64,000 bases of DNA from Candidatus Shapirobacteria bacterium. GTDB taxonomy: Bacteria > Patescibacteriota > Microgenomatia > UBA12405. Made by a program: the position numbers and the translations under genes. The notes under the pieces are model-generated. The model was not told the origin of the DNA. It made no database searches and worked only from the letters and a program-made list of their open reading frames with translations. Shown here one piece after another: positions 17,800 to 34,085 of this stretch; the stretch's first letter is position 1; the number at the start of each line of letters is the position of its first letter. Where the stretch lies: the NCBI GenBank assembly GCA_041661765.1, contig JBAZTV010000001.1, positions 7,755-71,754 of the forward strand. The letters run 5' to 3'.

Positions 17800-20795
<2,996 letters not shown>

Positions 20796-21042: not shown

Positions 21043-21080
21043 AAGTGCTTTCTTCTTTAAAGTACTGCTTTCAAGCATTA

Positions 21081-21108
21081 AAAAACCGAAAGCTAAATGC
21101 TTTCGGTC
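21081..21108 (-). terminator. Intrinsic terminator downstream of the DedA gene (minus strand: ACCGAAAGCATTTAGCTTTCGGTTTTTT)
   Basis: An 8-bp stem with a T6 run when read on the minus strand, 160 nt 3' of the CDS stop. Confidence 0.55.
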
Positions 21109-21267
21109 AATCTCCTATTTTACAATTTACTTTTCTAAGCGGGCAATCCCCCTTTATTAAAGTTTTTATTATTTTTTAGGTTGACTTTTAGCATCTCGAT
21201 AAGTGGAAGTATTCTACCTAATTTAAATATTCCCGTCAACACGCAAATCTATTTTCAATAGAACCAA

Positions 21268-21903
21268 TTATTTCTTCATTTTTACTTTAATTATTTCCAC
21301 TCCAATCGGTATCACTGAGACAAATATTATCGCCAATACCACATATTCAAAATTTGCTTTCATTACCGGAATATTTCCCAAAAAATACCCTCCAAAAATA
21401 AACAAAGTATTCCACAATAAAGATCCGATCACACTAAAAGTTAAAAATTTTAAATAAGGCATCTTCCCAATTCCTGCCACAAACGGAGCAAAAGTTCTCA
21501 CTATTGGTACAAACCTTGCCAAAATCACTGCCTTTGTCCCATATTTAGCATAAAAATCCTGTGTCTTCTCTAAATGTTTTCTTTTAAGAAATTTATTATT
21601 TGATTCAAATAGTTTTTGACCAACCAATCGTCCCACCCAATAGTTAACATTATCTCCAAGAAAAACTGCTGTTATTAACAATAAATAAAGTCCCACCACA
21701 TTAAACATTCCTTGTGCCGCCAAAGCTCCAGCTGCAAATAAAAGTGAATCACCTGGCAAAAACGGAGTGAACACCAATCCTGTCTCCATAAAAAGTATTC
21801 CCGCCAAAATTCCATAACTCAAAGTACCGTATGTTTGGGTAATAATTAAAAGATGTTCATCAATATGTAAAACAAAATCAATTATATTCATTAAAAATTC
21901 CAT
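21268..21903 (-). CDS. DedA/VTT-family membrane protein
   Basis: 211 aa with 4-5 TM helices. The motif FTPFLPGDSLLFAAGALAAQG is typical of the DedA/SNARE-associated (VTT) family. Confidence 0.7.
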   Translation of the reverse strand: MEFLMNIIDFVLHIDEHLLIITQTYGTLSYGILAGILFMETGLVFTPFLPGDSLLFAAGALAAQGMFNVVGLYLLLITAVFLGDNVNYWVGRLVGQKLFESNNKFLKRKHLEKTQDFYAKYGTKAVILARFVPIVRTFAPFVAGIGKMPYLKFLTFSVIGSLLWNTLFIFGGYFLGNIPVMKANFEYVVLAIIFVSVIPIGVEIIKVKMKK

Positions 21904-21906
21904 GTC

Positions 21907-23040: not shown

Positions 23041-23309
23041 TTAATGAAAATCAAACCCAAATTCATAAATAATTCTTGCTTAATTGCCAAAACTACATTT
23101 TCATCAGCATTTTTTATTCGAATATTTTTTTCATCAAAAATCAACTCCGAATAACCTCTTTTAATCATTCTATCTACCATAATCTTAATTATTTCCACAT
23201 ATTCTTCATTTTTATTTTTTTCAAAATGTATCTCTACTATTTTATTCTTATCATCAAAAAATAATTCACCTATTTTTTCATCATTATCCCAAATATTTAT
23301 TTTTTTCAT
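23037..23309 (-). CDS. Small hypothetical protein (90 aa)
   Basis: ORF whose stop overlaps the downstream gene start (operon-style 4-nt overlap with the 23306..25012 gene). Confidence 0.35.
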   Translation of the reverse strand: MKKINIWDNDEKIGELFFDDKNKIVEIHFEKNKNEEYVEIIKIMVDRMIKRGYSELIFDEKNIRIKNADENVVLAIKQELFMNLGLIFIK

Positions 23310-25012
23310 AATTTAGATAAATATAAATTTCTAATTTGTTCCCTTGTAAATCCTTTCCTTTCCCAATGCATTTTACTCAACAATAAATTTAAATTTAAGC
23401 TTACTTTAAATTTGGATAAATTTTCTGAATCCATATACGTTTCAAATAATTCCTTCATATACCGAAACCTACTTTCCGACAATATCTGTAGTAAACTTGG
23501 ATCTTTAGTAAACATCATAAAACTCTCACAGAAATCTTCTCTTTTTTTAGTTGATTTCGATTTATTTCCTGCATATCCAACATACCAAGTTATTTCTGTT
23601 TCATCATCTCTCATCACATTTTCCCACTTCTTTAAGTCATCAACTCCTAAATCATTATGTACTCCATGACCAATTTCATGTGTTAAAGTATCCAAAAAAG
23701 CTCCTCTAATAAAAAATTCTTTTTTTTCATTATTATCACCATTATCCATTTCAAATGGTTCATAGATAGTAATATTTCCATAAATTAATTTTCCTTTATC
23801 ATTTAATATTGGTTTAAACTCACCAACTATTACTTTTTTAGTTTTTCCATTTGCATTATCTTCATTGTTTCCAAAATCAATATCATCTTCTGATCGCTCT
23901 CTCGATACCTCTATTTTTCCTATTTTTAAAAAAGCAGTGGGGAGAGTACCTTCCAAAAAGGCTTTCACTATACCCTCGGTAACTACTAATTTTTTACCAT
24001 CACTTGCCTCTAAACCTATTATTTTTATCTTAATTAAAGTTTTTTCCTCTCTTTTAGATTCAATAAAACATTGTTTTTCATCATCATTTTGAGGTAATAA
24101 TCCACTCTCTATTAATTTCTTTTCATCTTCTATAAACCTCTTCTCTATTGCTTTTAAAAATCTTGGATCATAGTGTGAATCATCAACCTCAGAATCAAAA
24201 TAGTAATGATGATCTAATAATTTTAAAAACAACATTGTTGGATTTTTAAAATTATTCGTCAGCCTATAAATCATATGTAAGGTATTAGTTTCAAGTAATT
24301 TTTCATTAACTCTATTCACCTTCTCTAATAAAGATTTTTTACTTATACTTTCACTTTTTTCATTTTTTCCATCAGACAAATTGTTTTTTTCTTGAAAATC
24401 TAAAAATCCATGATTATCACATCTACTTCTTATCTTTTTCAAAGACTCTTCAATTGAATATAGAGAATAAAGATCATTTTGTTCTAATTTCTCATCATCT
24501 CCCGATACTATCACTTCTCTCAATGAGAGAATATCATCAATTGATACAATATGACCAAGGAATTCATCATTTTTATTGTCTAAAAAATAATTCACTACTT
24601 TATTAAAATTAATTTGGCCCGAAAGTTCGTTTGCAAAGATTTTTATGTCCTCAACTACATAAGGTTTACACTCTTCTTTTAAAGAAAAAAACTCATTTTC
24701 TTTTTTATAAATTTCAAAACCTAAATTTACAATTTTAGTTATATTAGATTGATCTTTATATTCTTCTAAAAGTTTCTCTATCATTTCACTTTTTTCAGAT
24801 AAAGACATTTCATTATTATCTATAACAACAAAAAACGAATCATTTATTTGATCCCGATCACTTTCTGAAAGATTATCATAAAGTTCATTTCCTTCATTTC
24901 TCATTACATCTAAATGACTTTCTGTATTTTTAATATCACTTTCAACTACACTTCTAGACCTAGCCATTATCTCAACTTTAGAATAAAGTTCTCCAACACC
25001 AGTTGTTTCCAT
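23306..25012 (-). CDS. Large acidic protein with a C-terminal HExxH zincin-like metallopeptidase motif
   Basis: 568 aa, very E/D/K-rich. TLTHEIGHGVHNDLG and a downstream E (EDFCESFMMFT) are consistent with a zincin fold. No TM or signal peptide. Confidence 0.45.
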   Translation of the reverse strand: METTGVGELYSKVEIMARSRSVVESDIKNTESHLDVMRNEGNELYDNLSESDRDQINDSFFVVIDNNEMSLSEKSEMIEKLLEEYKDQSNITKIVNLGFEIYKKENEFFSLKEECKPYVVEDIKIFANELSGQINFNKVVNYFLDNKNDEFLGHIVSIDDILSLREVIVSGDDEKLEQNDLYSLYSIEESLKKIRSRCDNHGFLDFQEKNNLSDGKNEKSESISKKSLLEKVNRVNEKLLETNTLHMIYRLTNNFKNPTMLFLKLLDHHYYFDSEVDDSHYDPRFLKAIEKRFIEDEKKLIESGLLPQNDDEKQCFIESKREEKTLIKIKIIGLEASDGKKLVVTEGIVKAFLEGTLPTAFLKIGKIEVSRERSEDDIDFGNNEDNANGKTKKVIVGEFKPILNDKGKLIYGNITIYEPFEMDNGDNNEKKEFFIRGAFLDTLTHEIGHGVHNDLGVDDLKKWENVMRDDETEITWYVGYAGNKSKSTKKREDFCESFMMFTKDPSLLQILSESRFRYMKELFETYMDSENLSKFKVSLNLNLLLSKMHWERKGFTREQIRNLYLSKL

Positions 25013-25058
25013 TAAACTAGATTAAAGAAATTCATTTCAATAGTCAAATAAATCCAAT

Positions 25059-25466
25059 TTAATTCCTTATTTTTGTATATCTACTTTTTCCAAAAGCCAA
25101 AATTGGATAAAAAATCATCGGCAAAAATATCAATCCTAAAACAAATCCCATTGATTTTTTAAATGACTTAACCAAATTAAGCAGAACCACCAATCCAATA
25201 ATTATGTTAACTAAGGGAATAAACATTAAAAATATATACCAAATTGGCATCCCCACAATTTCCAATAAAACCACCATGTTATAAACTGGAACCAATGCCG
25301 CCCAGCCAGGTTTCCCGGCTTTCACAAAAATCTTCCAGGCCGATGCCAACATCAATATTAAAAATAAAAAACAAATAAAATTACCAAACATTCCCATTCC
25401 CCCAATTCCTGCCGCATAACCATAACCAGCATGATAACCAGAAGTATTATAAATGTAATTATTCAT
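25059..25466 (-). CDS. Small integral membrane protein (135 aa, 3-4 TM)
   Basis: Gly/Tyr-rich N-terminus followed by hydrophobic helices. Confidence 0.4.
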   Translation of the reverse strand: MNNYIYNTSGYHAGYGYAAGIGGMGMFGNFICFLFLILMLASAWKIFVKAGKPGWAALVPVYNMVVLLEIVGMPIWYIFLMFIPLVNIIIGLVVLLNLVKSFKKSMGFVLGLIFLPMIFYPILAFGKSRYTKIRN

Positions 25467-25545
25467 ACATTAATATTAATACACCATTTCCAAAAGTCAA
25501 ACGCTTTATCTACGATCTATCATCAACAATCCAAGATCTAATTTG

Positions 25546-25619
25546 TGGGTGATGGGGGACTCGAACCTCCGACCCCTGTCTTATCAGGACAGTGCTCTAA
25601 CCAACTGAGCTAATCACCC
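25546..25619 (-). tRNA. tRNA-Ile (anticodon GAT); CCA not encoded
   Basis: Acceptor GGGTGAT/ATCACCC, D-arm GCTCAGTTGGTTAGAGC, anticodon stem-loop CTGTC-CTGATAA-GACAG, T-loop TTCGAGT. One A:C mismatch in the T-stem. Confidence 0.75.
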
Positions 25620-25686
25620 GTACGTAAAAGTAAACCTATTGTAGCAATAAGTTTACTAAATTTAAATACCAAAACATCAATATCAG

Positions 25687-25742
25687 CCGCCCTGTCAAGG
25701 GAGGTGGCGATCCCGCAGCAGCGGGAAGAGACGGAGGGTTTT
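25687..25742. repeat. Family-1 repeat: CCCTGTCAAGGGAGG + TGGCGATCCCGCAGCAGCGGGAAGAGAC + GGAGGGTTTT
   Basis: Direct reading. More than 90% identical to the copy at 46341..46395. Confidence 0.8.
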
Positions 25743-25755: not shown

Positions 25756-26700
25756 TTAACAATGTTTCAAAAACATCTCCACTATTAATTTTGCCACATT
25801 AATTCCAGTCGACTTTTCAAATCCCTGAAATTGACATTGTCGATTCACTTCCAACACAAAACTATTTCCTTCATCATCTTTCATGATATCTACTCCACAA
25901 TAATCCAATCCACAAACATTAGCCACTTTTTCGGCAATTTCTCTATCTTTCTGAGACAAATCCCAACCTTCAACCTTTCCCCCTAAACTAAAATTACTTC
26001 TAAATTCATCTCCCACCGCCGATCTTTTCATGGCTCCAATTGCTTTTCCATCCAACACAATAATTCTCAAATCCCATCTGGTTGGTAAACATTTTTGCCA
26101 CAAAAACATCCCTACATTTTTTTCATTAATTCTTCTGACAAATTTTCTTAGTTCTTTAAAGTTTTCAAATTTTCTTACCGATTTACCTTGAAACCCTCTT
26201 TCATGTTTAGCAATTATCGGCCAACCAAAACTTTCCCCAATTTTGCTCTCTAAAACTTGTTCCTTCGTATAGAATATTTTTGTCGGAATTACTGACACCT
26301 CATTTTCTAAAAACACCCCATGTTGAGCAATTTTCCCCATTCTTGTCCAATGTAAATATCCTTCTTTATTAGCACAAAATATTGATTTTTCTGTAAGAGC
26401 AGACCCTTGTGTCTGCCCACTCAATAATCTTATTGCTAAATTTCTCGCCTCAGTATATTTTCCCGATCTAGTACCCGCCACCCTAAACCACATTCCCAAA
26501 GTATTTTTCCCATTAATTTCTTCTCCTTTAATAAAAACTTTCGCCTTTCCATTCTCTACATTAAAAGTCAAATCCTTATACAAAGCTCTATTCACTTCCA
26601 CTCCCAATTTCTTTGCCTCAGATTCCAATCTATCCACCTCAAATTGGCTTTGTCTTAACGACATTGTAAATGTAACGATTTTTTTATTCATAATTTTCAC
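25756..26700 (-). CDS. RimK-like ATP-grasp ligase (paralogue 1) with an in-frame GQTQGSA hairpin insert
   Basis: ATP-grasp motifs: the C-terminal LDYCGVDIMKDDEGNSFVLEVNRQCQFQGFEKSTGINVAKLIV is RimK/LysX-like. The insert is encoded by the hairpin at 26392..26418. Confidence 0.7.
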   Translation of the reverse strand: MKIMNKKIVTFTMSLRQSQFEVDRLESEAKKLGVEVNRALYKDLTFNVENGKAKVFIKGEEINGKNTLGMWFRVAGTRSGKYTEARNLAIRLLSGQTQGSALTEKSIFCANKEGYLHWTRMGKIAQHGVFLENEVSVIPTKIFYTKEQVLESKIGESFGWPIIAKHERGFQGKSVRKFENFKELRKFVRRINEKNVGMFLWQKCLPTRWDLRIIVLDGKAIGAMKRSAVGDEFRSNFSLGGKVEGWDLSQKDREIAEKVANVCGLDYCGVDIMKDDEGNSFVLEVNRQCQFQGFEKSTGINVAKLIVEMFLKHC

Positions 26701-26735
26701 TATTAATTAATAAGTCCCTCTTGTCAAAGAGGGAT

Positions 26736-27818
26736 TTAGGGAGATTTCAATGATACTAAAAATTTAACCATTTCCATTGGCACATCAATTCCAGTTGCCT
26801 CCATAAATCCCTTAAATTGTGGTCCTTTATTCACTTCCCAAATTATCGGCTGGCTCAAGTCATTATTTCTAAAAGCCACATCTACTCCTGCCACTGCCAA
26901 TCCACAAACCTTAGCTGCCTTAACTGCCAATTGTTTAATTTCTTCCGACAATTCAGCCAATTCAACCTTTCCTCCAGCTGAATAATTATTTTTAAATTCA
27001 TCTTTATTTTGACTGCTTCTTTTCATCACTCCCAACACTTTTTCTCCCAACACCAACACTCGAAAATCCCCATCATTAGGGATAAACTCTTGCAGCATAT
27101 ATCTTCTTCCCTCATCAATTTCACTTTTTCTCAAATCTCTTACCAATTTTTCTAATTGTTCCAAATTATCCGTCTTAAACACTCTCGTCCCCCTGTCTCC
27201 ACCCGAACCCTTAATAATTACTGGAAATTTCCAAATATAATCAGTCGAGCCAGAAATATTTTTTTGGAGCGCAACATCCGAGGTGCAATGCCGAAGGGCG
27301 TGAGCACCAACAAAAATGTTTTGGCGATCAGACTGATTATTCATAAATTCATACAAATACCACAAACTTCCATAAACTGTTTTCGGTACCTCTATTCCCG
27401 CTTCTTTCAAAGCCAACATTTGCCAAGCCTTACACGCCATACTTGGTTTTCCACTTTCCACTAATGGATCAACGATGATTGGTTTTTTTAAGTCTCCCTT
27501 TAAGTCAAAGGGAGATTTAGAGGGATTTTTTATCTGATTAATAATCAAATCAACTTCTTCCCAATGTTTTCCCGTCGTTCTAAAAAACAACACATCGTAA
27601 TCGTCTACTTTTTTATAATCATCAAATTGGTTTATTCTACTTTCCCCACTTAAATTTGGTCTAATTAAAATTTCTTTTTTTTCCGTATCAAAACAAACTT
27701 TGTTGTATGACACCAAATCCAAACTAACCCCCAATTTTTTAGCCGCCTTTTTAACCAACACCAAATGTTGACTTATCTTCCCTCCAAAAAACACTGCTAT
27801 TTTTGTTTGTTTGTTCAT
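26736..27818 (-). CDS. RimK-like ATP-grasp ligase (paralogue 2) with two in-frame repeat inserts
   Basis: KGSGGDRGTRVFK and LAVAGVDVAFRNND...IWEVNKGPQFKGFMEATGIDV are RimK-like. The inserts are KNPSKSPFDLKGDLKK (about 27485..27535) and HALRHCTSDVALQ (GC-rich element at 27267..27309). Confidence 0.7.
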   Translation of the reverse strand: MNKQTKIAVFFGGKISQHLVLVKKAAKKLGVSLDLVSYNKVCFDTEKKEILIRPNLSGESRINQFDDYKKVDDYDVLFFRTTGKHWEEVDLIINQIKNPSKSPFDLKGDLKKPIIVDPLVESGKPSMACKAWQMLALKEAGIEVPKTVYGSLWYLYEFMNNQSDRQNIFVGAHALRHCTSDVALQKNISGSTDYIWKFPVIIKGSGGDRGTRVFKTDNLEQLEKLVRDLRKSEIDEGRRYMLQEFIPNDGDFRVLVLGEKVLGVMKRSSQNKDEFKNNYSAGGKVELAELSEEIKQLAVKAAKVCGLAVAGVDVAFRNNDLSQPIIWEVNKGPQFKGFMEATGIDVPMEMVKFLVSLKSP

Positions 27819-27895
27819 TTTATGTTTAATATTTAATTATTTTTTATTTTAAGCCTCCCTGTCAAGAGAGGATGCCCGAAGGACAGGTGGGTTTT

Positions 27896-29260
27896 TTATT
27901 TTTTCGCACTAACTAAAAAATCCCCTAAATCCTTTCTCCCCAATAAAAATTTCGTTCTCAATTTTCCTCTATCTGCCACATTCACTGCTGTTATTACTTT
28001 TTTACCATTCAACCAAAAAGTAATTCCTATCACTGGTCGATCTATATGTTTTCCCAAACTTGATCGATAATTTCGATAATATAAAATTCTTTCTTTAGCT
28101 AATAATCCTAATTTTTCAGCCAAATCCCTATCGATTGAACTCCTAAACGCCCCAGTATCCACCTTAGCTCTTACATTTACCACTCGATGTTTTCCTTGCT
28201 TAATAATCGGGCTTTTTTGTAAAATTGGTTTAAATCCTTTTATGATTTTAACCTTAATTATTTCAATTGGTTCCACTGTTTTTCTTTTTTCCTTTTCTTC
28301 AACTTTCTCAAAAAAACTTTCTCCAAATAAATATTTAACCAAAGTAATTGCATGTTCCACACTTCTCACCGTAATTTCATCTACTTTTTCCATTCTCAAT
28401 TTTAATCCTGCCTTATTACAAATCTGAATCGAAAGTCCTGGTCTAGCATTCACTTCTAATACCATTGGTCCCTTTTCTTTATCTAAGACTACATCTACAC
28501 CCATAAATCCTAAAGCCGGAATTGCTCTTTGACAATTAATTGCCGTCTCTAAAATTTCTTTCCAAAACGGAATTTTAATTCCATTTACTTTTCTGTTTTT
28601 CTTTTTTCCATAATCATAAATTCGATAAATTTGTTCCCCTTTTCCTTCAACCCCAAAAGTTGTAATTCCTGTTGCCAAATCTACCCCTAAACCTATCGCT
28701 CCTTGTTGTAAATTTGCCTTACCTCCCGACGCTTCTGTCGGAATTCTAAACATCGCCATCACTGGCACATTATTATAAACAATCACTCTAATGTCTGGTG
28801 TTCCCGATTTAGTCAAAGCCAAAAACAATGGATGAATTTTAATTCTTTCTTCCACAAGTACCTTATCAGGCATCGCATGTAAACTATATTTCCCCGCCAA
28901 AATTTCTTGACAATGCAAACTTAAATCGCTACTACTAACAATTTCTCCATTCATTTTTTGCCACTCACCCGCCCATTTTCCTCTTTTTCGAATAATTAAA
29001 ATTCCCTCCCCGCCATATCCTGATTCTGGTTTAATCACAAAGTTTCCTTCCAAATCTTCCCATCGAAATTTTGCCAAGTCTTGGTCATTCTTAAATCTAG
29101 TAATCAACTTTGGCACCGACACCCCCGCTTTAGAAATTATTTTTTTAGTTTTAAATTTACTATCAGCAATCGCTCTACCACTAGCACTATTTTTCCTCAA
29201 ATAAATTTTATTTCTCTCATTCTTAGTCAGAAATTGCCGATATTTTCTTAAATTAAACAT
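27896..29260 (-). CDS. Fusion protein: alpha-L-glutamate-ligase-related ATP-grasp domain plus a C-terminal retropepsin-like domain (the RimK-associated putative ATP-dependent zinc protease family)
   Basis: N-terminal ...FVIKPESGYGGEGILII...GFMGVDVVLDKEKGPMVLEVNARPGLSIQ is ATP-grasp. The C-terminal VVNVRAKVDTGAFRSSID...ITFWLNGKKV carries a retropepsin-type DTGA motif. Confidence 0.7.
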   Translation of the reverse strand: MFNLRKYRQFLTKNERNKIYLRKNSASGRAIADSKFKTKKIISKAGVSVPKLITRFKNDQDLAKFRWEDLEGNFVIKPESGYGGEGILIIRKRGKWAGEWQKMNGEIVSSSDLSLHCQEILAGKYSLHAMPDKVLVEERIKIHPLFLALTKSGTPDIRVIVYNNVPVMAMFRIPTEASGGKANLQQGAIGLGVDLATGITTFGVEGKGEQIYRIYDYGKKKNRKVNGIKIPFWKEILETAINCQRAIPALGFMGVDVVLDKEKGPMVLEVNARPGLSIQICNKAGLKLRMEKVDEITVRSVEHAITLVKYLFGESFFEKVEEKEKRKTVEPIEIIKVKIIKGFKPILQKSPIIKQGKHRVVNVRAKVDTGAFRSSIDRDLAEKLGLLAKERILYYRNYRSSLGKHIDRPVIGITFWLNGKKVITAVNVADRGKLRTKFLLGRKDLGDFLVSAKK

Positions 29261-29311
29261 AATTTATTTATTTTGTTAAGTCTCCCCTGTCAAGGGGAGA
29301 TTTAGAGGGGT

Positions 29312-30178
29312 TTAAATCTTCTTAGTTCGTATCGCCCCTTTAAACCTATTAATTTCTGTCAATCTTATTCCTGAATAATTCCCAATCAATAAATTTGAAA
29401 CTAATACTACCAATATAATCAACTCCGGATATTTCAAAACCAAATTTTGAATTGAACCAAAACTCATAAATATCGATCCACTCATAGCCAAAACAATTGT
29501 TCCCGCCATTAATTTTTTAGCTTCCTTTTTACTTTTAACCAATTGAGTTCTTACAAACTCTTCAGTTAAAAGTATCATAAATAAAATTGGAAAAATTGAA
29601 ATCTCACTAATATCAATAACGTTAACAAAACTCGTCAATAACATTAATGCAAATACTGCTACTGAAATAAACATCAAATTAATTGCTCTTGCTGGCCAAA
29701 AATGAATCTTCAATTTTTTCAAAACCATATTACCCAAAAGAGAAATTCCCAAAATTAATGCAAACAACAACAATCCTCCAAAAAATCCCGTTGACAGAAA
29801 AGCCACCGCAATCATTGTCGGCATAAAGATTCCATAACCCGACAAGCCCACCACATAATGCAAAAAAGATACCAAAGTTGCTATTAATGGTAATAACAAT
29901 AACAAAACTATTGTATTAGTTGATACACCTCTATCAATTGCCGTCTTTATCATCCATCTAAAACTATTAAACCCATTCCATTTACCCACTTCATAACTAA
30001 TTTTATTACTTTTTGCTTCAGTAATATTAATCGTCGGCACCACTGTCGGCATTAAAGTTGCCGTTGGAGTTGCAGTTACCGTTGGTGTAATTATTGTCTT
30101 AGCTAAAATTGGTTTAAATCCAAAAGCTAAAAAACAAACAGCAAATACTATTAATAGTGGGGCAACTATTTTTTTCAT
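29312..30178 (-). CDS. Seven-TM membrane protein with an N-terminal signal peptide and a Thr/Pro-rich linker; probable partner of the ATP-grasp/protease genes
   Basis: 288 aa with seven hydrophobic helices after a TPTVTATPTATLMPTVVPT linker. It is co-oriented and tightly spaced (51 bp) with the upstream ligase-protease gene. Confidence 0.55.
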   Translation of the reverse strand: MKKIVAPLLIVFAVCFLAFGFKPILAKTIITPTVTATPTATLMPTVVPTINITEAKSNKISYEVGKWNGFNSFRWMIKTAIDRGVSTNTIVLLLLLPLIATLVSFLHYVVGLSGYGIFMPTMIAVAFLSTGFFGGLLLFALILGISLLGNMVLKKLKIHFWPARAINLMFISVAVFALMLLTSFVNVIDISEISIFPILFMILLTEEFVRTQLVKSKKEAKKLMAGTIVLAMSGSIFMSFGSIQNLVLKYPELIILVVLVSNLLIGNYSGIRLTEINRFKGAIRTKKI

Positions 30179-30335
30179 ATGTTTATTTTACTTTATATCT
30201 AGTTCTAAATCTGAGACCTGAAATTTGACATCTAAGATCTCTAATGTTGCGTATTATAACACCGATTTTTCAAAAAAAACCACCAAAGACTTCTCCCTTT
30301 GTTAAGGGGAGATGTCCGCAGGACAGAGAGGTTTT

Positions 30336-30349
30336 TTTATAGTATAATT
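30336..30349 (+). promoter_or_regulatory. Candidate -10 element TTTATAGTATAATT, 10 nt upstream of the ATG of pilin paralogue 1 (an identical 14-mer lies at 32226..32239 before paralogue 6); possible leaderless or short-leader promoter
   Basis: Identical 14-mer with a TATAAT core in both places, each sitting directly after a family-1 repeat tail (GGTTTTT). Confidence 0.35.
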
Positions 30350-30358
30350 CAAACAAAT

Positions 30359-30691
30359 ATGAACTCCGTTTTAGCCTTTAATCTTAGTGACATCCAACTT
30401 GGACAAACTTCTAACACTCTTGGCGGCAGTTACTCCACTACCAGTTCTCTTATTTCTATTATTCTCAAAACTTCCATTACTATTGCCAGTATTATTTTTC
30501 TTGGCCTTTTGATTTTTGGTGGAATTACCTTTATAATGAACGCAGGCAGTGGTGATTCCAAAAAAGCCGATCAAGGCAAAACAGCCATCACCAACGCTGT
30601 AATTGGATTCGCTATTGTGCTTTTAGCCTATACCATAATCCAAATTATCGAAGTTATTACTGGACTAAACATTTTAAATCCAAATTTATAA
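30359..30691 (+). CDS. VirB2/TrbC-like two-helix pilin candidate, paralogue 1 (the ORF-track start at 30299 reads through a repeat; ATG at 30359 preferred)
   Basis: Hydrophobic helix, loop AGSGDSKKADQGK, hydrophobic helix. Same architecture and loop motif as the five downstream paralogues. Confidence 0.55.
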   Translation: MNSVLAFNLSDIQLGQTSNTLGGSYSTTSSLISIILKTSITIASIIFLGLLIFGGITFIMNAGSGDSKKADQGKTAITNAVIGFAIVLLAYTIIQIIEVITGLNILNPNL

Positions 30692-30693
30692 TT

Positions 30694-30999
30694 ATGGCAT
30701 CAATTTTTGGAAACATTTCCAACCCCACTTCTTTTGCTAACGGTCCTCAAGGTTTCTTTGATTTTTTAAGCGCTATTTTTAAAGTTGCCGGCACAGTTGC
30801 TGGTATTTTCTTTATTATTAAAATAATTATGGCTGGTTTTAGTTACCTCAACGCTGGTGGAGATGAAAAGAAAATCTCCCAAGCTTGGGCTACCATTTGG
30901 CAAAGTATAGTTGGTTTCGTTATTGTTGCCTCTGCTTTTGTCATCGCCAGTGTCATCGGCAACTTAACTGGAATTAATATTCTTAACCCTACTCTATGA
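30694..30999 (+). CDS. VirB2/TrbC-like pilin candidate, paralogue 2
   Basis: TM helix, loop AGGDEKK, TM helix. 2-nt spacing from the previous gene. Confidence 0.55.
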   Translation: MASIFGNISNPTSFANGPQGFFDFLSAIFKVAGTVAGIFFIIKIIMAGFSYLNAGGDEKKISQAWATIWQSIVGFVIVASAFVIASVIGNLTGINILNPTL

Positions 31000-31340
31000 A
31001 CCATTTAACCAATAATCTTTTAGCCTACACTCTCACTGGTCCAGGTATTAAACCTGGATCCAATTCTGTTTCCACCTTAGAAAAAATTATTAGTTCTGTC
31101 ATTGGCATTTTAACCCTTGTTGGTGTTATTTACTTCACCATTCAAATAATTTTAGCCGGATATAAATTAATTGCTTCCCAAGGAGATCCAAAAGAATTCG
31201 AATCTGGTAAAAAAAGATTAACCACAAATATTATCGGTTTAGCTGTTATTGTTCTCGCCTACGGGCTCGGTGCCCTAATCGCCAGCTTACTCGGAATGAG
31301 CAGTATTTTTGATTTATCAACCGTTTTTAAACCAATTTAA
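30996..31340 (+). CDS. VirB2/TrbC-like pilin candidate, paralogue 3
   Basis: TM helix, loop SQGDPKE, TM helix. 4-nt overlap with the previous gene. Confidence 0.55.
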   Translation: MNHLTNNLLAYTLTGPGIKPGSNSVSTLEKIISSVIGILTLVGVIYFTIQIILAGYKLIASQGDPKEFESGKKRLTTNIIGLAVIVLAYGLGALIASLLGMSSIFDLSTVFKPI

Positions 31341-31341
31341 T

Positions 31342-31668
31342 ATGGCCATCACCAATCCTGTTTTAAAAAATAGTTCTAATATTAGTAGTAACCCCACTGG
31401 CTACTTTAACAGTGCCATTCAAACTATGATTTCTCTTTTTTTTATTTTTGGCCTAATCTACTTTATTTTTCATTTAGTTCTTGCCGGCTACAAAATGATT
31501 TCCTCTCAAGGGGATCCTAAAAAATATGAAGAGGCTCAACATAGCCTTATCTACTCTTTAATTGGTATTGCTATCGTCTTTTCCATTTTTGCCCTACTCA
31601 AAATTGTTGGCACTATTTTCGGTATCACCGGATTAGAAAGTTTAACCATTACCTGGCCATCCCTTTAA
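31342..31668 (+). CDS. VirB2/TrbC-like pilin candidate, paralogue 4 (start moved to the ATG right after the upstream stop)
   Basis: TM helix, loop SQGDPKK, TM helix. Confidence 0.55.
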   Translation: MAITNPVLKNSSNISSNPTGYFNSAIQTMISLFFIFGLIYFIFHLVLAGYKMISSQGDPKKYEEAQHSLIYSLIGIAIVFSIFALLKIVGTIFGITGLESLTITWPSL

Positions 31669-31717
31669 TATTTAAAATTTACTGGTAAAATTAATTAATA
31701 GTTATTAAATCAAAAAA

Positions 31718-32098
31718 ATGATCAAAGAAATAAAAAACAAAATTCAATTTGCAGCTGTTGCTGCTCCAATCTACGCCGCTCAAAGTTTAGAACTTACTGG
31801 TAAAGAGGGAAGCTTTTCTAACCTCGAAAATTTAACCATTAACGGTATGGTTTCTGGTGCTATTAGTTTAGTTTTAATTGTCGTGTCGTTAGTTTTCTTC
31901 TTTATTCTTGTCATCGGTGGTCTCAAGTGGATCACTTCTGGTGGAGATGAAAAAAAGGTTGCTGCCGCTCGTGCTGAAATTACCAATGCTTTAATCGGTT
32001 TAGTTATTGTCTTTGCCGCTTGGGCCATTATGAAACTTATTGGCTCCATCTTTGGCATCAACATCCTTGGAACTCTAACCATTCCAACTTTCCAATAA
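31718..32098 (+). CDS. VirB2/TrbC-like pilin candidate, paralogue 5
   Basis: TM helix, loop SGGDEKK, TM helix. Followed by a terminator hairpin. Confidence 0.55.
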   Translation: MIKEIKNKIQFAAVAAPIYAAQSLELTGKEGSFSNLENLTINGMVSGAISLVLIVVSLVFFFILVIGGLKWITSGGDEKKVAAARAEITNALIGLVIVFAAWAIMKLIGSIFGINILGTLTIPTFQ

Positions 32099-32114
32099 AA
32101 TCAATTTGATTTTT

Positions 32115-32144
32115 CACCCCTCCAATAATTTGGAGGGGTTTTTG
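32115..32144 (+). terminator. Intrinsic terminator after pilin paralogue 5 (CACCCCTCCAATAATTTGGAGGGGTTTTTG)
   Basis: An 8-bp GC-rich stem followed by a T5 run. Confidence 0.6.
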
Positions 32145-32244
32145 TTTAGACTTCTCCTTTTTTTTAATAAAAATAAAAGTGCCCTGTCAAGGGAAAGGTG
32201 GTACGAAGTACCAAAGGGTTTTAACTTTATAGTATAATTAATCC

Positions 32245-32598
32245 ATGAATTTAATCTCAAATATTTTCTCTCCTCCCCCAGTTTATGCCCAATCAGTTTG
32301 GAATAGTACTTGTGTTAAAGATACCGACGTCGCCACTATCCAAGGTTTTAATTGCCTTTTTGCTAATATTGCCCAAGTTATCGTTTATTTTGCTGGTCTT
32401 GCCTTTTTTATCATGTTCATTCGCGGTGGCTTCAGTTATCTAACTTCCAGTGGCGATCCAAAAAAAACAGCTAAAGCCACTTCCACCCTCACCCTGGCCA
32501 TTATTGGCCTAGTTGGAGTTATTATTTCCTACCTAATCATCAAATTCATCGGTGATTTTACAGGCATCAATATTACTGAGTTTAATATTCCCAGTTAA
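32245..32598 (+). CDS. VirB2/TrbC-like pilin candidate, paralogue 6
   Basis: TM helix, loop SSGDPKK, TM helix. It has its own upstream TTTATAGTATAATT element, identical to the one before paralogue 1. Confidence 0.55.
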   Translation: MNLISNIFSPPPVYAQSVWNSTCVKDTDVATIQGFNCLFANIAQVIVYFAGLAFFIMFIRGGFSYLTSSGDPKKTAKATSTLTLAIIGLVGVIISYLIIKFIGDFTGINITEFNIPS

Positions 32599-34085
32599 TG
32601 AAACGAATCTTAATCGTTTTATTATTTTTCTTATTTTTATTCCCCTCCTTGTCAAGGGAGGGGTCAGGGGTGGGTTTTGTCTACGCCCAACCAACAACTA
32701 TTTTATCTGAAAATCAATCCACCACTCCACCCACCGTCACCCCAGAAGAAAGTTTATGGACCAGATTTTGGAATTGGATTTCCAAAGTTTTTATTAAAAC
32801 TGATTACGCCATTGCCGAAAGATCAACCAAAAATATTAATTCTGACATGACCGAATATGGCACTACCTCAGACAATGGTAAACATTCATCTTCTGGCACT
32901 CGTCTCACCGATTCCCAAAGCCAAACCTGCTACAAAGGCAATGTTATTAAAAAAGTGATTTTAAATACTACTGGTTATCCCAACACTGACCTCACCCAAA
33001 TTTGTAATTCATCAAATGGTTGTGTTGTTTCCTCTGGTTCTGATTCTGATTGTAAAACAGTTTCTATTAAAGATTTAGCTCATTACTTTGTTCAAATTAA
33101 TAAACAATTCTATTGTGATAGTTCAAATAATTTAATTAATATTGAATCCAATATTACTAATGCTGTTATTGGCACCAGCCTTCCAGAAATTTCACAAAAC
33201 AATCTTAATTGTTATCAACAAATATATAATGATTTTTATCTAGTCCCTAAAAACGGTTCCACCGAAGAAGAAAATTCCAAAAATATAGTTCAAACTCCAA
33301 TTTCCGCCAGCAATCAAAGTTCCGGTGACAATGCCAATGCTACAAAAAATAAACTCAATAAAAATTTTATTCCTGCTAATAAAAATTGGAGTGGTTTAAA
33401 CAGCCTCCGCCCCGCTAGTTGGAAAAAAGGTCCATCAGAAGCTGGTACAGGTACCGGCACTGGATTTAATAGTGGTGGTGTCGTTAGTCCTGGTACGTGC
33501 AATGCCAAAGACAGCCACTGTCGAGGCATGAGCACCATTGGTGCTTTTGGTCTTTCTAAGTCAGGCAAAACTTATGAAGAAATACTTAAAAGTTATTACG
33601 GCGACATCACTCTTAAAACCATTGACATCTCCAATGCTAATATTACTATTATTCCCAATGATAACGACGACTGTTCATCAACCACTCTAAATCTCGAAAC
33701 TTACCTTAGTGGTCTTCAAGAAATACCCGATTCTTGGGGTGATTCCAGTGCAGGTGGTTATGAAAGTTTAAAAGCTCAAGTAGTAGCCGCTCGTACATAT
33801 GCTTACGTCTACACTCAAAATTTAACCAAATCAATTTGTACTAGTTCTAGTTGCCAAAATGCTCGTTGCAATGCCATTAATAGTAGTCCTAATTTAGACA
33901 AAGCAATTAAAGATACTGAAGGCCAAATTATTGTTGATTCAAATAATCAAACTCCATTCGCCACCGAATATGCTCGTTCCTTTTGCGGACCATCTCTATC
34001 CGTTACTTTTTCTAACCATACCACTCCTTCATTTAATGGTTATGATGCCGAAGTTCAAACCGGCGAAAAACTTTATTGTTTATAA
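32598..34085 (+). CDS. Secreted Cys-rich protein with a C-terminal SpoIID/LytB-like (lytic transglycosylase-type) domain
   Basis: N-terminal hydrophobic signal (partly repeat-encoded: FPSLSREGSGVGFVYA). C-terminal ...GGYESLKAQVVAARTYAYVYT... matches the conserved SpoIID/LytB signature (ALKAQAVAARTYA). Confidence 0.5.
   Translation: MKRILIVLLFFLFLFPSLSREGSGVGFVYAQPTTILSENQSTTPPTVTPEESLWTRFWNWISKVFIKTDYAIAERSTKNINSDMTEYGTTSDNGKHSSSGTRLTDSQSQTCYKGNVIKKVILNTTGYPNTDLTQICNSSNGCVVSSGSDSDCKTVSIKDLAHYFVQINKQFYCDSSNNLINIESNITNAVIGTSLPEISQNNLNCYQQIYNDFYLVPKNGSTEEENSKNIVQTPISASNQSSGDNANATKNKLNKNFIPANKNWSGLNSLRPASWKKGPSEAGTGTGTGFNSGGVVSPGTCNAKDSHCRGMSTIGAFGLSKSGKTYEEILKSYYGDITLKTIDISNANITIIPNDNDDCSSTTLNLETYLSGLQEIPDSWGDSSAGGYESLKAQVVAARTYAYVYTQNLTKSICTSSSCQNARCNAINSSPNLDKAIKDTEGQIIVDSNNQTPFATEYARSFCGPSLSVTFSNHTTPSFNGYDAEVQTGEKLYCL

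What the first reader, a model, noticed from the sequence alone, without database searches (positions are those of the whole stretch)
25756..30178. Three tandem RimK-like ATP-grasp ligases, one fused to a retropepsin-like protease, plus a 7TM protein: candidate ribosome-independent peptide-tagging or signalling system
Four co-directional genes. Two are stand-alone RimK-type ATP-grasp ligases, 314 and 360 aa, both with repeat insertions. The third is a 454-aa protein combining an alpha-L-glutamate-ligase-related ATP-grasp domain with a C-terminal retropepsin-like domain (VRAKVDTGAFRSSID), the family often annotated as putative ATP-dependent zinc protease. The fourth is a signal-peptide 7TM membrane protein. 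A ligase/retropepsin-like protease/7TM neighbourhood has been noted in comparative-genomics work as a predicted peptide-synthesis or peptide-modification system of unknown product. Here it is expanded to three ligases and the ligase and protease are fused, which would couple amino-acid addition and processing in one polypeptide. A small membrane protein (25059..25466) and a large acidic HExxH protein (23306..25012) lie immediately downstream on the same strand and may belong to the same unit. No substrate or function is known.
Basis: partly seen in the sequence, partly recalled or inferred. Interest (0 to 1): 0.75.

Follow-up and report, generated by a model that had tools for sequence, protein, structure and literature searches.

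The report
Membrane-linked peptide ligase–protease gene cluster
This is a real, conserved four-gene cluster in an ultra-small (Candidatus Shapirobacteria) bacterium: a membrane protein, a peptide-building enzyme fused to a peptide-cutting enzyme, and two more peptide-building enzymes. It is a rearranged relative of the recently named Pseudomonas "Rlo" stress-tolerance system, whose product is still unknown.

Summary
Four co-directional minus-strand genes encode:
- a 7TM_transglut membrane protein (288 aa)
- an ATP-grasp ligase (ATPgrasp_ST / TIGR02291 type) fused to a retropepsin-like DTGA domain (454 aa)
- two divergent RimK-family ligases (360 and 314 aa)

Across 69 species-level loci, mostly Shapirobacteria/Woesebacteria, the 7TM gene precedes the fusion in 66/66 testable cases. 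Two RimK-like genes follow in 33/45, one in 11/45, none in 1/45. The 7TM + fusion core also occurs in other Patescibacteria.

The C-terminal domain profile best matches the RloA crystal structures (9g59, E=5e-9). It keeps K-x-D-T-G-A and two arginines at conserved family positions, which I map by inference to RloA's poly-glutamate-binding residues.

Relatives fuse the same ligase to MATCAP carboxypeptidase, to a second ATP-grasp domain, or to the 7TM domain.

The cluster is a compact variant of the rloABC-type system: no transglutaminase ectodomain, a cytosolic fused protease, extra ligases. The likely mechanism, inferred and not shown, is membrane-docked build-and-trim of an acidic peptide.

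The downstream HExxH and DUF5684 genes lie beyond a tRNA, are absent from close relatives, and are not part of the unit.

Verdict: new variant of a known kind.

The parts
29312..30178 (-). 7TM membrane protein (288 aa). It has a signal-peptide-like N-terminus, a Pro/Thr-rich linker and a 7TM_transglut domain (aa 88-283 = nt 29330-29917). It corresponds to the 7TM half of RloB and has no inactive-transglutaminase ectodomain.
   Evidence: Pfam PF14402 E=5.9e-27. NCBIfam RloB NF052267 matches only profile positions 312-506 of 508, at 61.6 bits against a cut-off of 900. It lies directly upstream of the fusion in 66/66 loci and is 100% identical to a protein of an NCBI Ca. Shapirobacteria MAG.
28316..29260 (-). 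ATP-grasp ligase domain of the 454-aa fusion protein (aa 1-315), of the RloC-like ATPgrasp_ST / TIGR02291 type.
   Evidence: PF14397 E=2e-63. TIGR02291 E=1.3e-79, 267.5 bits against a cut-off of 314. AF2 pLDDT is about 90, and the top Foldseek hits are cyanophycin synthetase, Ddl, RimK and ArgX/LysX. K77, E269 and N271 are invariant in 60 sequences down to about 38% identity.
27896..28273 (-). Retropepsin-like (PF05618 / RimB-RloA family) aspartic protease domain of the fusion (aa 330-454, plus the stop codon). The catalytic DTGA is at aa 368-371 (nt 28148-28159).
   Evidence: The profile of 13 orthologous domains hits RloA structures 9g59 (E=5.3e-9) and 9g58 (3.7e-6), then 2pma, ApRick and DDI1. 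K366, D368, G370, A371, R408, R431, G441, R442, D444 and L445 are invariant. The domain has no Cys and lacks the long flap insertion. AF2 predicts a beta-rich fold with pLDDT about 85-90.
26736..27818 (-). RimK-like ATP-grasp ligase 2 (360 aa), with variable loop insertions at about aa 101-110 and 168-190.
   Evidence: PF08443 E=9.2e-29. TIGR00768 scores 128.3 bits against a cut-off of 143.4, and the S6-Glu ligase equivalog 66 against 331. The best PDB matches are RimK 7qyr/7qys/5zct, with the EVN motif kept. It is present downstream of the fusion in 44/45 loci with enough sequence.
25756..26700 (-). RimK-like ATP-grasp ligase 1 (314 aa; the likely true start is the ATG at 26691), with an in-frame repeat-derived insertion at aa about 97-105.
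   Evidence: PF08443 E=1.6e-28. TIGR00768 scores 130.3 bits against 143.4, and the S6-Glu ligase equivalog 61 against 331. It matches RimK 5zct/4iwx with the EVN motif kept. It is 37% identical to ligase 2 in the ATP-grasp core only. It is present in 33/45 loci.
29261..29311 (-). Spacer between the 7TM and fusion genes. It carries a palindromic repeat (CCCCTTGACAGGGG on the gene strand). Similar copies lie in the other spacers (27843-27895, 26710-26750, 25676-25707).
   Evidence: Repeat families D6/D8/D9/D14. The motif CCYTGTCAARGG occurs 20 times in the window against 0.04 expected, 18 of the 20 in one orientation. Sequences were read. The scan found TTGACA-17/18-AATAAT/AATAGT promoter-like matches upstream of both RimK-like genes. 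Function was not tested.

Best explanation
Identity (high confidence). This is a conserved four-gene operon of a Candidatus Shapirobacteria (Patescibacteria/CPR) genome. It belongs to the same kind of system as the Pseudomonas rloABC operon and the 'ATP-grasp + retropepsin-like peptidase + 7TM' neighbourhood predicted from comparative genomics, but in a compact, rearranged form.
- The RloC-type ligase and the RloA/RimB-type aspartic protease are one cytosolic polypeptide.
- The RloB-type membrane protein keeps only its 7TM half.
- Two divergent RimK-family ligases have been added.

Mechanism (inferred, moderate confidence).
1. The fusion protein docks on the conserved cytoplasmic C-terminal tail of the 7TM protein.
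2. Its ATP-grasp domain uses ATP to add amino acids, most likely glutamate or other acidic residues, one at a time to a carboxyl end. This makes an alpha-linked acidic oligo- or polypeptide, either free or on an unknown acceptor.
3. The two RimK-like paralogues prime, extend or diversify that chain.
4. The fused retropepsin domain must dimerise to form its two-aspartate active site. It cuts long chains and so limits or releases the product, as RimB does for RimK.
5. The 7TM protein passes the product, or its effect, to the cell envelope.

Fusing the protease to the ligase guarantees one trimming enzyme per ligase. In Pseudomonas, losing the proteases is harmful only while the ligase and the 7TM protein are present, which fits this design.

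Shown here: gene order, domain identities, conservation of catalytic and substrate-groove residues, synteny and the range of fusions.
Not shown: the amino acid used, the acceptor, the product, export, or any phenotype.
For: Domains.

Synteny: the 7TM gene precedes the fusion in 66/66 loci. Two RimK-like genes follow in 33/45, one in 11/45 and none in 1/45. The same 7TM + fusion core occurs in distant Patescibacteria (L068, L070, L072).

Protease domain: the profile matches the RloA crystal structures best. K-x-D-T-G-A, R408 and R431 are invariant down to about 38% identity. In RloA, K46, D48, R114 and R137 are needed for cleaving runs of at least 8 Glu in vitro, and R114 and R137 also for function in vivo (PMC12239564). 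The domain has no cysteines and no long flap, like cytosolic RimB rather than periplasmic RloA.

Ligase domain: AF2 pLDDT 86. The nearest solved folds are peptide- or amide-forming ATP-grasp enzymes, including RimK bound to RpsF. The K77/E269/N271 ATP-Mg motif is invariant. The fusion protein carries a net charge of about +38, which fits an acidic substrate.

Fusions that point to physical coupling: 7TM_transglut is fused to the ligase N-terminus in four independent representatives (P0351, P0367, P0373, P0387). Of the 85 best family representatives, 31 have the ligase fused to a MATCAP carboxypeptidase domain and 28 have a significant PF05618 hit. Other fusions or neighbours include a second ATP-grasp domain and an M17 aminopeptidase.

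Genetics in the homologous system: deleting rloB or rloC suppresses the rloA1-3 triple protease mutant.
Against: - No product, substrate or phenotype is known for any Patescibacteria member.
- Even in Pseudomonas the RloC product and the RloB function are unknown.
- TIGR02291, TIGR00768 and PF05618 all score just below their curated cut-offs for the window proteins.
- Glutamate specificity is extrapolated from RimK and RloA. The mapping of R408/R431 onto RloA R114/R137 rests on conserved motif positions and a numbering offset, not on a structural superposition.
- The 7TM model is of low confidence (pLDDT 63) and resembles no solved transporter, so export is a guess.
- In Pseudomonas the protease acts outside the cytoplasm. 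Here it cannot, so the logic of the two systems may differ.
- Synteny among closely related MAGs is partly just shared ancestry.
Confidence: 0.6

Rival explanations
1. Envelope glycan or cell-wall precursor decoration. The ligases attach amino acids by amide bonds to carboxyl groups of a sugar acid, a peptidoglycan-like stem or a lipid-linked intermediate (the 'sugar-transfer associated' reading of PF14397). The 7TM protein flips or positions that intermediate. The peptidase removes or edits the added residues.
For: - The Pfam family name and description fit this reading.
- One relative fuses the ligase-protease to a YdjC-like carbohydrate deacetylase (P0248).
- Three glycosyltransferase genes lie upstream in L070.
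- GH18 and DedA/VTT genes follow the cluster in many Shapirobacteria.
- Structural neighbours include D-Ala-D-Ala ligases.
- rlo mutants in Pseudomonas show cell-shape, ampicillin and hypo-osmotic phenotypes.
Against: - The recurrent partners are peptidases that act on peptide chains: retropepsin, MATCAP carboxypeptidase and M17 aminopeptidase.
- The protease groove keeps residues at the positions that in RloA bind poly-Glu.
- A tRNA gene separates GH18/DedA from the cluster, and they are not linked to it in distant lineages.
Confidence: 0.2
2. Signalling module. The 7TM protein is a receptor whose variable ectodomain senses an external cue and switches the docked ligase/protease on or off. 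The peptide product or modification then acts inside the cell.
For: - The ectodomain varies: none, a PT-linker, PKD, or inactive transglutaminase.
- The 7TM core and cytoplasmic tail are strongly conserved.
- The 7TM domain is directly fused to the ligase in some relatives.
Against: - Many Patescibacteria versions have no ectodomain at all (220-221 aa).
- There is no output domain or regulator in the neighbourhood.
- Conserved charged residues within the predicted helices (H107, E206, E207, R210) or in the loops between them (H159, R164, D189) fit transport or catalysis at least as well.
Confidence: 0.1
3. The two stand-alone ligases are ordinary RimK enzymes that polyglutamylate ribosomal protein S6, and they merely sit next to an unrelated 7TM/fusion pair.
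For: Their best PDB and NCBIfam matches are to the RimK family. The cluster lies beside rRNA/tRNA genes.
Against: - Scores against the S6-Glu ligase equivalog are 61-66 bits against a cut-off of 331, and the RimK subfamily model is also below its cut-off.
- There are two diverged paralogues (37% identity, core only).
- The link to the 7TM/fusion pair is tight (44/45 loci with room have at least one), and distant lineages have a different ATP-grasp ligase in the same position.
Confidence: 0.07
4. A RiPP (graspetide/microviridin-like) or anti-phage defence cluster.
For: There are weak hits to ATP-grasp RiPP maturase models (E about 1e-5, 23 bits against cut-offs of 350-425). Ligases, a protease and a membrane protein resemble RiPP cluster logic.
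Against: - There is no room for a precursor-peptide gene: the spacers are 35-77 bp and filled by repeats.
- No PADLOC model matches any of the proteins.
- The cluster sits at a fixed housekeeping position next to the rRNA genes.
Confidence: 0.03

Closest known systems
rloABC operon of Pseudomonas aeruginosa / P. fluorescens (Lormand et al. 2025, mBio, PMC12239564)
   Same: It has the same three protein families:
- a PF05618 retropepsin-like protease with K-x-D-T-G-A and conserved arginines at the same family positions (the best PDB hits are the RloA structures 9g59/9g58)
- a PF14402 7TM domain
- a TIGR02291/PF14397 ATP-grasp ligase
The genes are adjacent and co-directional.
   Different: - Here the protease is fused to the C-terminus of the ligase. 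It has no signal peptide, no conserved disulfide and no long flap, so it must act in the cytoplasm.
- The 7TM protein lacks the inactive-transglutaminase ectodomain.
- Two extra RimK-family ligases are present.
- The host is a Patescibacteria genome, whereas that paper found 96% of RloB hits in Proteobacteria.
RimK-RimB(-RimA) system (ribosomal protein S6 poly-glutamylation and its removal)
   Same: A cytosolic ATP-grasp alpha-L-glutamate ligase is paired with a cytosolic PF05618 aspartic protease that binds the ligase and trims poly-Glu (as summarised in PMC12239564). The window's protease domain is of the cytosolic type, and two genes are RimK-family.
   Different: - The protease's partner ligase here is the ATPgrasp_ST type, not RimK.
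- The RimK-like genes fail the S6-ligase equivalog cut-off.
- An obligatory 7TM partner is present, and there is no RimA.
- S6 as substrate was not tested.
ATP-grasp / peptidase / 7TM-inactive-transglutaminase neighbourhood predicted by Iyer, Abhiman, Burroughs & Aravind 2009 (Mol Biosyst 5:1636). The Pfam names PF14397 and PF14402 are, to my recollection, derived from it.
   Same: The domain families and the predicted logic of peptide synthesis or modification coupled to a membrane protein are the same. This rests on the Pfam descriptions and my recollection, because the paper could not be read here.
   Different: The Patescibacteria architecture (ligase-retropepsin fusion, transglutaminase-less 7TM, added RimK/MATCAP/M17 partners) was not found described in the searchable literature.
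Eukaryotic tubulin C-terminal 'write-erase' enzymes: TTL/TTLL ATP-grasp ligases with MATCAP/CCP carboxypeptidases
   Same: ATP-grasp ligases that add Tyr or Glu to an acidic C-terminal tail are paired with peptidases that remove them. Of the 85 closest family representatives, 31 carry a fused MATCAP (PF08014) domain and 11 give weak TTL hits.
   Different: The window itself has no MATCAP gene; its HExxH protein shows no similarity to MATCAP. There is no tubulin-like substrate. The analogy is functional and no direct descent is shown.
Cyanophycin synthetase/cyanophycinase and poly-gamma-glutamate synthesis/degradation (CapBCA/PgdS)
   Same: These are ribosome-independent poly-amino-acid synthesis by ATP-dependent ligases paired with a dedicated hydrolase. 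Cyanophycin synthetase is the top structural neighbour of the ligase domain.
   Different: The ligase families and domain organisation differ, and scores against the cyanophycin synthetase models are negligible (about 25-29 bits against a cut-off of 850). There is no Mur-like domain.

Membership tests
rloABC-type system | ATP-grasp ligase of the RloC type (TIGR02291 / PF14397) | tested here: inconclusive
   PF14397 scores 214.7 bits against a cut-off of 31.4 (met). TIGR02291 is matched almost end to end (9-309 against 11-307 of 317, E=1.3e-79) but at 267.5 bits, below the 314.2 equivalog cut-off. That TIGR02291 is the RloC family is my inference from its name and its known Pseudomonas/Vibrio distribution.
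rloABC-type system | Inner-membrane protein with a 7TM domain plus a periplasmic inactive-transglutaminase domain (RloB) | tested here: not met
   The 7TM half is present (PF14402, 95 bits). The RloB model NF052267 is matched only over positions 312-506 of 508, at 61.6 bits against a cut-off of 900. The N-terminal 87 aa are a signal-like segment plus a PT-rich linker.
rloABC-type system | Retropepsin-like PF05618 protease with catalytic DTGA and a basic substrate groove | tested here: met
   The profile hits RloA structures 9g59 (E=5.3e-9) and 9g58 (E=3.7e-6). K366-x-D368-T-G-A371, R408 and R431 are invariant. The single-sequence Pfam score of 26.6 is just under the cut-off of 27, but orthologues score 37-42 bits.
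rloABC-type system | The protease is secreted (N-terminal signal peptide, conserved disulfide) | tested here: not met
   The domain is the C-terminal part of a 454-aa protein with no hydrophobic segment, behind an ATP-dependent ligase. It has zero cysteines. Periplasmic orthologues have the disulfide and cytosolic RimB does not.
rloABC-type system | Role in hypo-osmotic stress tolerance, cell shape and biofilm, with ligase/7TM loss suppressing protease loss | not testable with these tools
   This needs genetics, and there is no cultured Shapirobacteria system.
RimK (S6-L-glutamate ligase) / RimB system | RimK equivalog-level similarity | tested here: not met
   PRK10446 scores 61.3 and 66.4 bits against a cut-off of 331. 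The TIGR00768 subfamily scores 130.3 and 128.3 against 143.4.
RimK (S6-L-glutamate ligase) / RimB system | Cytosolic PF05618 protease that partners the ligase | tested here: met
   The protease domain is covalently fused to a cytosolic ATP-grasp ligase, although that ligase is not of the RimK type.
RimK (S6-L-glutamate ligase) / RimB system | Ribosomal protein S6 with a Glu-rich C-terminus as acceptor | not tested
ATP-grasp amidoligase superfamily | ATP-grasp fold with a conserved Lys and the E-x-N Mg/ATP motif (established knowledge of the superfamily) | tested here: met
   In the fusion, K77, E269 and N271 are invariant, and the fold matches RimK/Ddl/CphA at E about 1e-9. RimK-like 1 and 2 keep the EVN motif aligned to the RimK structures.
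Graspetide/microviridin RiPP clusters | A precursor peptide gene next to the ATP-grasp maturases | tested here: not met
   The spacers are 35-77 bp and are occupied by repeats. Maturase models score about 23 bits against cut-offs of 350-425.
Known anti-phage defence systems (PADLOC) | A match to any defence protein model | tested here: not met
   None of the seven proteins gave a hit at E<=0.01.

The most novel reading that the evidence does not exclude
The Patescibacteria module may be an ancient, self-contained 'write-and-erase' machine for a ribosome-independent acidic peptide. A membrane-docked ligase carries its own eraser on the same chain: a retropepsin, and in many relatives also a MATCAP carboxypeptidase. 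Its product would be a previously unknown envelope-associated or exported poly-amino acid that matters for the surface biology of these ultra-small, host-attached bacteria. On this reading, the proteobacterial Rlo system (secreted protease, transglutaminase ectodomain) and perhaps the eukaryotic TTL/TTLL-MATCAP pairing are later elaborations of the same ligase-peptidase partnership, and Rlo is not a Gammaproteobacterial invention derived from rimK/rimB.
Probability: 0.12. Interest if true: 0.8.

Novelty: new variant of a known kind. Interest (0 to 1): 0.55.

Why it matters
The rlo system affects antibiotic tolerance, biofilm and cell shape in Pseudomonas, but what its ligase makes and what its 7TM protein does are unknown.

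The Patescibacteria versions supply natural fusion evidence that had not been pointed out in the literature I could search:
- the ligase is covalently joined to the protease in this window and across Patescibacteria
- the ligase is joined to the 7TM domain in four independent lineages
- the ligase is joined to MATCAP-type carboxypeptidases in about a third of the closest family representatives

This argues that ligase, eraser and membrane protein work as one physical unit on a peptide chain. It also gives a minimal two-gene version (a 220-aa 7TM protein plus the fusion) that should be easier to reconstitute than the Pseudomonas system.

The system also extends well beyond Proteobacteria, which bears on the proposal that rlo arose from rim within Gammaproteobacteria.

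For the biology of these ultra-small bacteria, it marks a well-conserved (74-96% identity among the top 120 database hits) and probably envelope-related function in organisms with very small genomes.

Tried and rejected
1. HExxH protein (23306-25012) as a divergent MATCAP/DUF1704 partner. BLASTP against the L070 MATCAP found nothing. It has no Pfam or NCBIfam hit, no PADLOC hit and no PDB hit for its C-terminal 214 aa. It is absent from all 69 related loci. I rejected it as part of the unit.
2. DUF5684 gene as part of the unit. It was found only in L064 and lies beyond tRNA-Ile. Rejected.
4. A Foldseek search of the AlphaFold database for the taxonomic spread of the fusion could not be run because the library was unavailable.
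5. The 2009 comparative-genomics paper (PMC3268129) is not held, so its exact prediction is cited from memory and from the Pfam descriptions only.
6. Literature on the Patescibacteria variant, or on MATCAP/DUF1704 together with ATP-grasp, returned nothing relevant.
8. A strict K-x-D-[TS]-G-A text search found the motif in only 27 of 104 long representatives. Many distant members therefore either lack the retropepsin domain (they have MATCAP, TPR and others instead) or have a diverged one. I did not resolve which.

Full report
**1. What is in the sequence**

The minus strand carries four closely spaced, co-directional ORFs at exactly the reported coordinates:
- 29312-30178 (288 aa)
- 27896-29260 (454 aa)
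- 26736-27818 (360 aa)
- 25756-26700 (314 aa)

The spacers between them are 51, 77 and 35 bp. The motif VRAKVDTGAFRSSID lies at residues 362-376 of the 454-aa protein.

A tRNA-Ile(GAT) gene at 25545-25619 follows the last ligase. After it come DUF5684 (25059-25466), a 568-aa acidic HExxH protein, a 90-aa ORF, a GH18-family protein, a DedA/VTT protein, tRNA-Ala, 23S and 5S rRNA.

The organism is a Candidatus Shapirobacteria (Patescibacteria/CPR). The 7TM protein is 100% identical to one from an NCBI Shapirobacteria MAG, and the nearest loci are Shapirobacteria/Woesebacteria MAGs.

**2. Domain identities**

RimK-like ligases (314 and 360 aa):
- Both match Pfam RimK (E about 1e-28) and the NCBIfam RimK subfamily TIGR00768. 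They score 130 and 128 bits, just under the 143.4 cut-off.
- They score far below the equivalog cut-offs for S6-Glu ligase (61-66 against 331), LysX, MptN, CofF, glutathione synthase and cyanophycin synthetase.
- Their closest solved relatives are RimK structures, and the E-V-N Mg/ATP motif is preserved.
- They are 37% identical to each other, over the ATP-grasp core only.

Fusion protein (454 aa):
- It matches ATPgrasp_ST (E=2e-63) and, almost end to end, TIGR02291 'alpha-L-glutamate ligase-like protein' (E=1.3e-79; 267 bits against a cut-off of 314).
- Its C-terminus gives sub-threshold hits to Zn_protease PF05618 (26.6 bits against 27) and to generic aspartyl-protease models.

7TM protein (288 aa):
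- It matches 7TM_transglut well above threshold.
- It matches the NCBIfam model of RloB only over that model's C-terminal 7TM half (positions 312-506 of 508).
- Its first 87 residues are a signal-peptide-like segment and a Pro/Thr-rich linker, not a transglutaminase domain.

**3. Is the DTGA region really a retropepsin-like protease?**

A profile of 13 orthologous C-terminal domains (A1) was searched against all PDB sequences. The hits, in order, were:
- 9g59 (E=5.3e-9) and 9g58 (3.7e-6), the RloA(Pfl) and RloA2(Pa) crystal structures of Lormand et al.
- 2pma, the Legionella PF05618 protein
- the Rickettsia retropepsin ApRick
- DDI1

Across 60 fusion proteins down to about 38% identity, K366, D368, G370, A371, R408, R431, G441, R442, D444 and L445 are invariant, and T369 is nearly so.

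In RloA, K46, D48, R114 and R137 line a basic groove. Mutating them impairs cleavage of runs of at least 8 glutamates in vitro, and R114A and R137A also abolish complementation in vivo (PMC12239564). By motif position (K-x-D-T-G-A; 'R-P'; 'D/N-R') and a numbering offset of about 22 residues, these correspond to K366, D368, R408 and R431. This mapping is an inference from the alignments, not from a structural superposition.

The fused domain lacks the 25-30-residue segment that forms the long flexible flaps of RloA (alignments). It has no cysteines. Periplasmic RloA orthologues carry a conserved disulfide, and cytosolic RimB does not.

The fusion protein has no hydrophobic segment. The protease domain is therefore catalytically plausible and cytosolic.

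AlphaFold2 with a 60-sequence alignment gives a confident two-domain model (mean pLDDT 86). It has a disordered linker at 316-324 and a beta-rich C-terminal domain. The nearest solved folds of the N-terminal domain are cyanophycin synthetase, D-Ala-D-Ala ligases, RimK (including the RimK-RpsF complex), ArgX/LysX and PsnB, at E about 1e-9.

**4. Conservation of the neighbourhood**

A scan of one genome per GTDB species returned 69 loci. tBLASTn with the window proteins showed:
- The 7TM gene lies directly upstream of the fusion in 66 of 66 loci with enough upstream sequence.
- Of the 45 loci with enough downstream sequence, 33 have both RimK-like genes in the same order and 11 have a single RimK-like gene. 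That single gene is closer to ligase 2 (36-42% identity) than to ligase 1 (26-33%).
- One locus, L068, has none.
- GH18 and DedA genes often follow.
- The HExxH and 90-aa proteins were found in none of the loci, and DUF5684 in one.

In the closest relatives (L001, L004, L005, L053) the order is cluster, tRNA-Ile, GH18, DedA, tRNA-Ala, 23S, 5S. In L001, only 96 nt separate tRNA-Ile from GH18. The 2.5-kb, 30% G+C block 23037-25466 in the window is therefore an insertion that the close relatives lack. It is not part of the system.

**5. The wider family**

The PF14397 + PF05618 fusion (about 430-475 aa) is common across Patescibacteria: Portnoybacteria, the Parcubacteria group, Moranbacteria and unclassified lineages.

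Examples of the neighbourhood:
- L068: a 489-aa PKD + 7TM protein precedes the fusion, with no further ligase.
- L070: a 221-aa 7TM protein, the fusion, a RimK-family ligase and a MATCAP/QEGLA (DUF1704) metallocarboxypeptidase lie in a row.
- L072: a 220-aa 7TM protein, the fusion, a 498-aa ATP-grasp_3 ligase and an M17 aminopeptidase lie in a row.

An exhaustive search of 1.84 billion 50%-identity representatives found 2165 relatives (371 at E<=1e-30). Of the 150 listed, 44 are 700-899 aa long. Among the best 85, all have ATPgrasp_ST, 31 also have a fused MATCAP domain, 28 have a significant PF05618 hit and 11 give weak TTL hits.

Individual architectures:
- ligase-retropepsin-MATCAP (P0246, P0263)
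- ligase-retropepsin-second ATP-grasp (P0283)
- ligase-retropepsin-YdjC (P0248)
- ligase-TPR
- 7TM_transglut fused to the N-terminus of the ligase in four representatives (P0351, P0367, P0387, and P0373, which also has a transglutaminase core)

The two of these representatives that carry a source name are an 'uncultured bacterium' accession, which I believe from its prefix comes from an aquifer metagenome, and a Patescibacteria-group MAG.

**6. How it most likely works**

Shown:
- three ATP-grasp amidoligases with intact nucleotide/Mg motifs
- a catalytically intact, cytosolic, RimB/RloA-type protease domain on the same chain as one of them
- an always-adjacent 7TM protein that other lineages fuse directly ahead of the ligase
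- recurrent additional ligases and exopeptidases

Inferred:
- With an N-out start (signal-like peptide) and seven helices, the C-terminus of the 7TM protein is cytoplasmic. Its invariant tail (N262...R284) is where the ligase sits.
- The ligase polymerises or appends amino acids in an ATP-dependent manner. Glutamate or acidic residues are the best guess, for three reasons: the RimK/TIGR02291 kinship, the conserved basic protease groove, and the +38 net charge of the fusion protein.
- The RimK-like paralogues prime, extend or diversify the chain.
- The retropepsin domain, dimerised, cuts over-long chains.
- The 7TM protein has conserved charged residues within its predicted helices (H107, E206, E207, R210) or in the loops between them (H159, R164, D189). 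It conveys the product or its effect to the envelope.

The Pseudomonas genetics fit a 'product must be trimmed' logic. The triple protease mutant cannot grow in low-osmolarity medium, and deleting rloB or rloC restores growth. Fusing the protease to the ligase would hard-wire that safeguard.

One important difference remains. In Pseudomonas trimming happens outside the cytoplasm, whereas here it must happen inside. In that respect the window resembles RimK/RimB, where the protease binds and regulates the ligase.

**7. Rivals**

- The main rival is that the acceptor is a glycan or cell-wall intermediate rather than a peptide. This is supported by the family's 'sugar-transfer associated' label, the YdjC fusion, nearby glycosyltransferases, the GH18/DedA neighbours, Ddl-like structural neighbours and the envelope phenotypes of rlo mutants.
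- A receptor/signalling role for the 7TM protein is possible.
- Ordinary S6-modifying RimK, a RiPP cluster and an anti-phage system are disfavoured by the sub-threshold equivalog scores, the lack of space for a precursor gene and the absence of PADLOC hits.

**8. Comparison with what is known, and novelty**

It works most like Rlo and Rim. As for membership, it meets the ligase, 7TM and protease family criteria of an rlo-type system. It fails two features of the described RloABC: the inactive-transglutaminase ectodomain and the secreted protease. It also fails the RimK equivalog test.

I therefore file it as a new variant of a known kind, not as a member of rloABC sensu stricto. NCBI already annotates these proteins generically ('sugar-transfer associated ATP-grasp domain-containing protein', '7TM domain-containing protein'), so the genes themselves are not new. 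I found no paper describing the Patescibacteria architecture or the ligase-MATCAP fusions, but the searchable library is incomplete.

**9. Limits**

- No function was demonstrated.
- Three key HMM scores sit just under curated cut-offs.
- The 7TM model is weak and has no informative structural neighbour.
- Much of the synteny comes from related MAGs.
- Many record titles are unreliable. For example, 'uncultured Gammaproteobacteria' and one 'Methanoperedens' contig carry a typical Shapirobacteria-type locus.

Noticed in passing
window, genome-wide; e.g. 29276-29316, 27843-27895, 26710-26750, 25676-25707, 7130-7184, 32622-32676: A family of short palindromic repeats with the core CCYTGTCAARGG. 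It occurs 20 times in the window against 0.04 expected, and 18 of the 20 copies share one orientation, so TTGACA (the sigma-70 -35 consensus) reads on the strand of most genes. A copy sits in every spacer of the ligase cluster, 25-45 nt before the start codons. The scan found TTGACA-17/18-AATAAT/AATAGT matches before both RimK-like genes. These may be portable promoters, RNA hairpins or both.
   Followed up: partly
window 22103-22146, 26384-26427 (also 12441-12484, 15690-15715, 46017-46060, 46202-46245, 50699-50742); 22899-22939, 27504-27527: Repeat copies are inserted in frame inside coding genes. GGGCAGACCCTTGTGTCTGCCC encodes 'GQTQGSALT' in both the GH18 protein and RimK-like 1. A GTCAAAGGGAGATTTAGAGGG-type copy encodes 'NPSKSP...' in GH18 and RimK-like 2. 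The RimK-like 1 insertion is missing in more than 80% of orthologues, so the proteins tolerate recent repeat insertions in surface loops.
   Followed up: partly
window 17579-25619; L001, L004, L005, L053: The rRNA operon is split. tRNA-Ile and tRNA-Ala, normally the 16S-23S spacer tRNAs, are separated by protein-coding genes (GH18 and DedA, plus the insertion here) and are followed by 23S and 5S. There is no 16S gene anywhere in the window, and the ligase cluster occupies the position upstream of tRNA-Ile. The arrangement is conserved in four close relatives.
   Followed up: partly
window 23037-25466: A low-G+C (about 30%) block inserted between tRNA-Ile and GH18 and absent from the close relatives. 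It holds a DUF5684 membrane protein, a 568-aa acidic protein with an HEIGH motif and a 90-aa ORF. The last two match no Pfam, NCBIfam or PADLOC model, and the C-terminal 214 aa of the 568-aa protein find no PDB relative. Origin and function are unknown.
   Followed up: partly
window 30299-34085 (+ strand): Six tandem paralogous small membrane proteins (101-130 aa) run divergently from the cluster. Two were tested and match T4SS_pilin PF18895. A 495-aa secreted protein with a SpoIID (peptidoglycan-cleaving) domain follows them.
   Followed up: partly
window 6-5345 (+ strand): A very large ORF (1779 aa, running in from near the window edge) is built from 51-nt (17-aa) and longer periodic repeats rich in N-T-x-G / N-T-A-x-G motifs. 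It is probably a repetitive surface protein. I did not analyse it.
   Followed up: no
L070 8179-9321; representatives P0246, P0260, P0263, P0273 and others: MATCAP (PF08014; NCBIfam 'QEGLA motif protein') is the family of the eukaryotic tubulin tyrosine carboxypeptidase. It is a neighbour of this ligase, or is fused to it, in about a third of the closest family representatives (31 of 85). I found no paper linking MATCAP/DUF1704 with ATP-grasp ligases in bacteria.
   Followed up: partly
L002, L007-L012, L014-L016 and others; L032: Many species-representative MAGs that carry this typical Shapirobacteria-type locus are titled 'uncultured Gammaproteobacteria bacterium', and one contig is titled 'Candidatus Methanoperedens sp.'. 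These look like placeholder labels or mis-binned contigs and should not be read as occurrences outside Patescibacteria.
   Followed up: no
window 30253-30261 (minus strand): An extended -10-like element (TGTTATAAT) lies about 75 nt upstream of the 7TM start codon, in the 120-bp divergent region. It was read by eye. The consensus scan, which requires a -35 hexamer, did not report it. It is a candidate promoter of the operon and was not tested.
   Followed up: no
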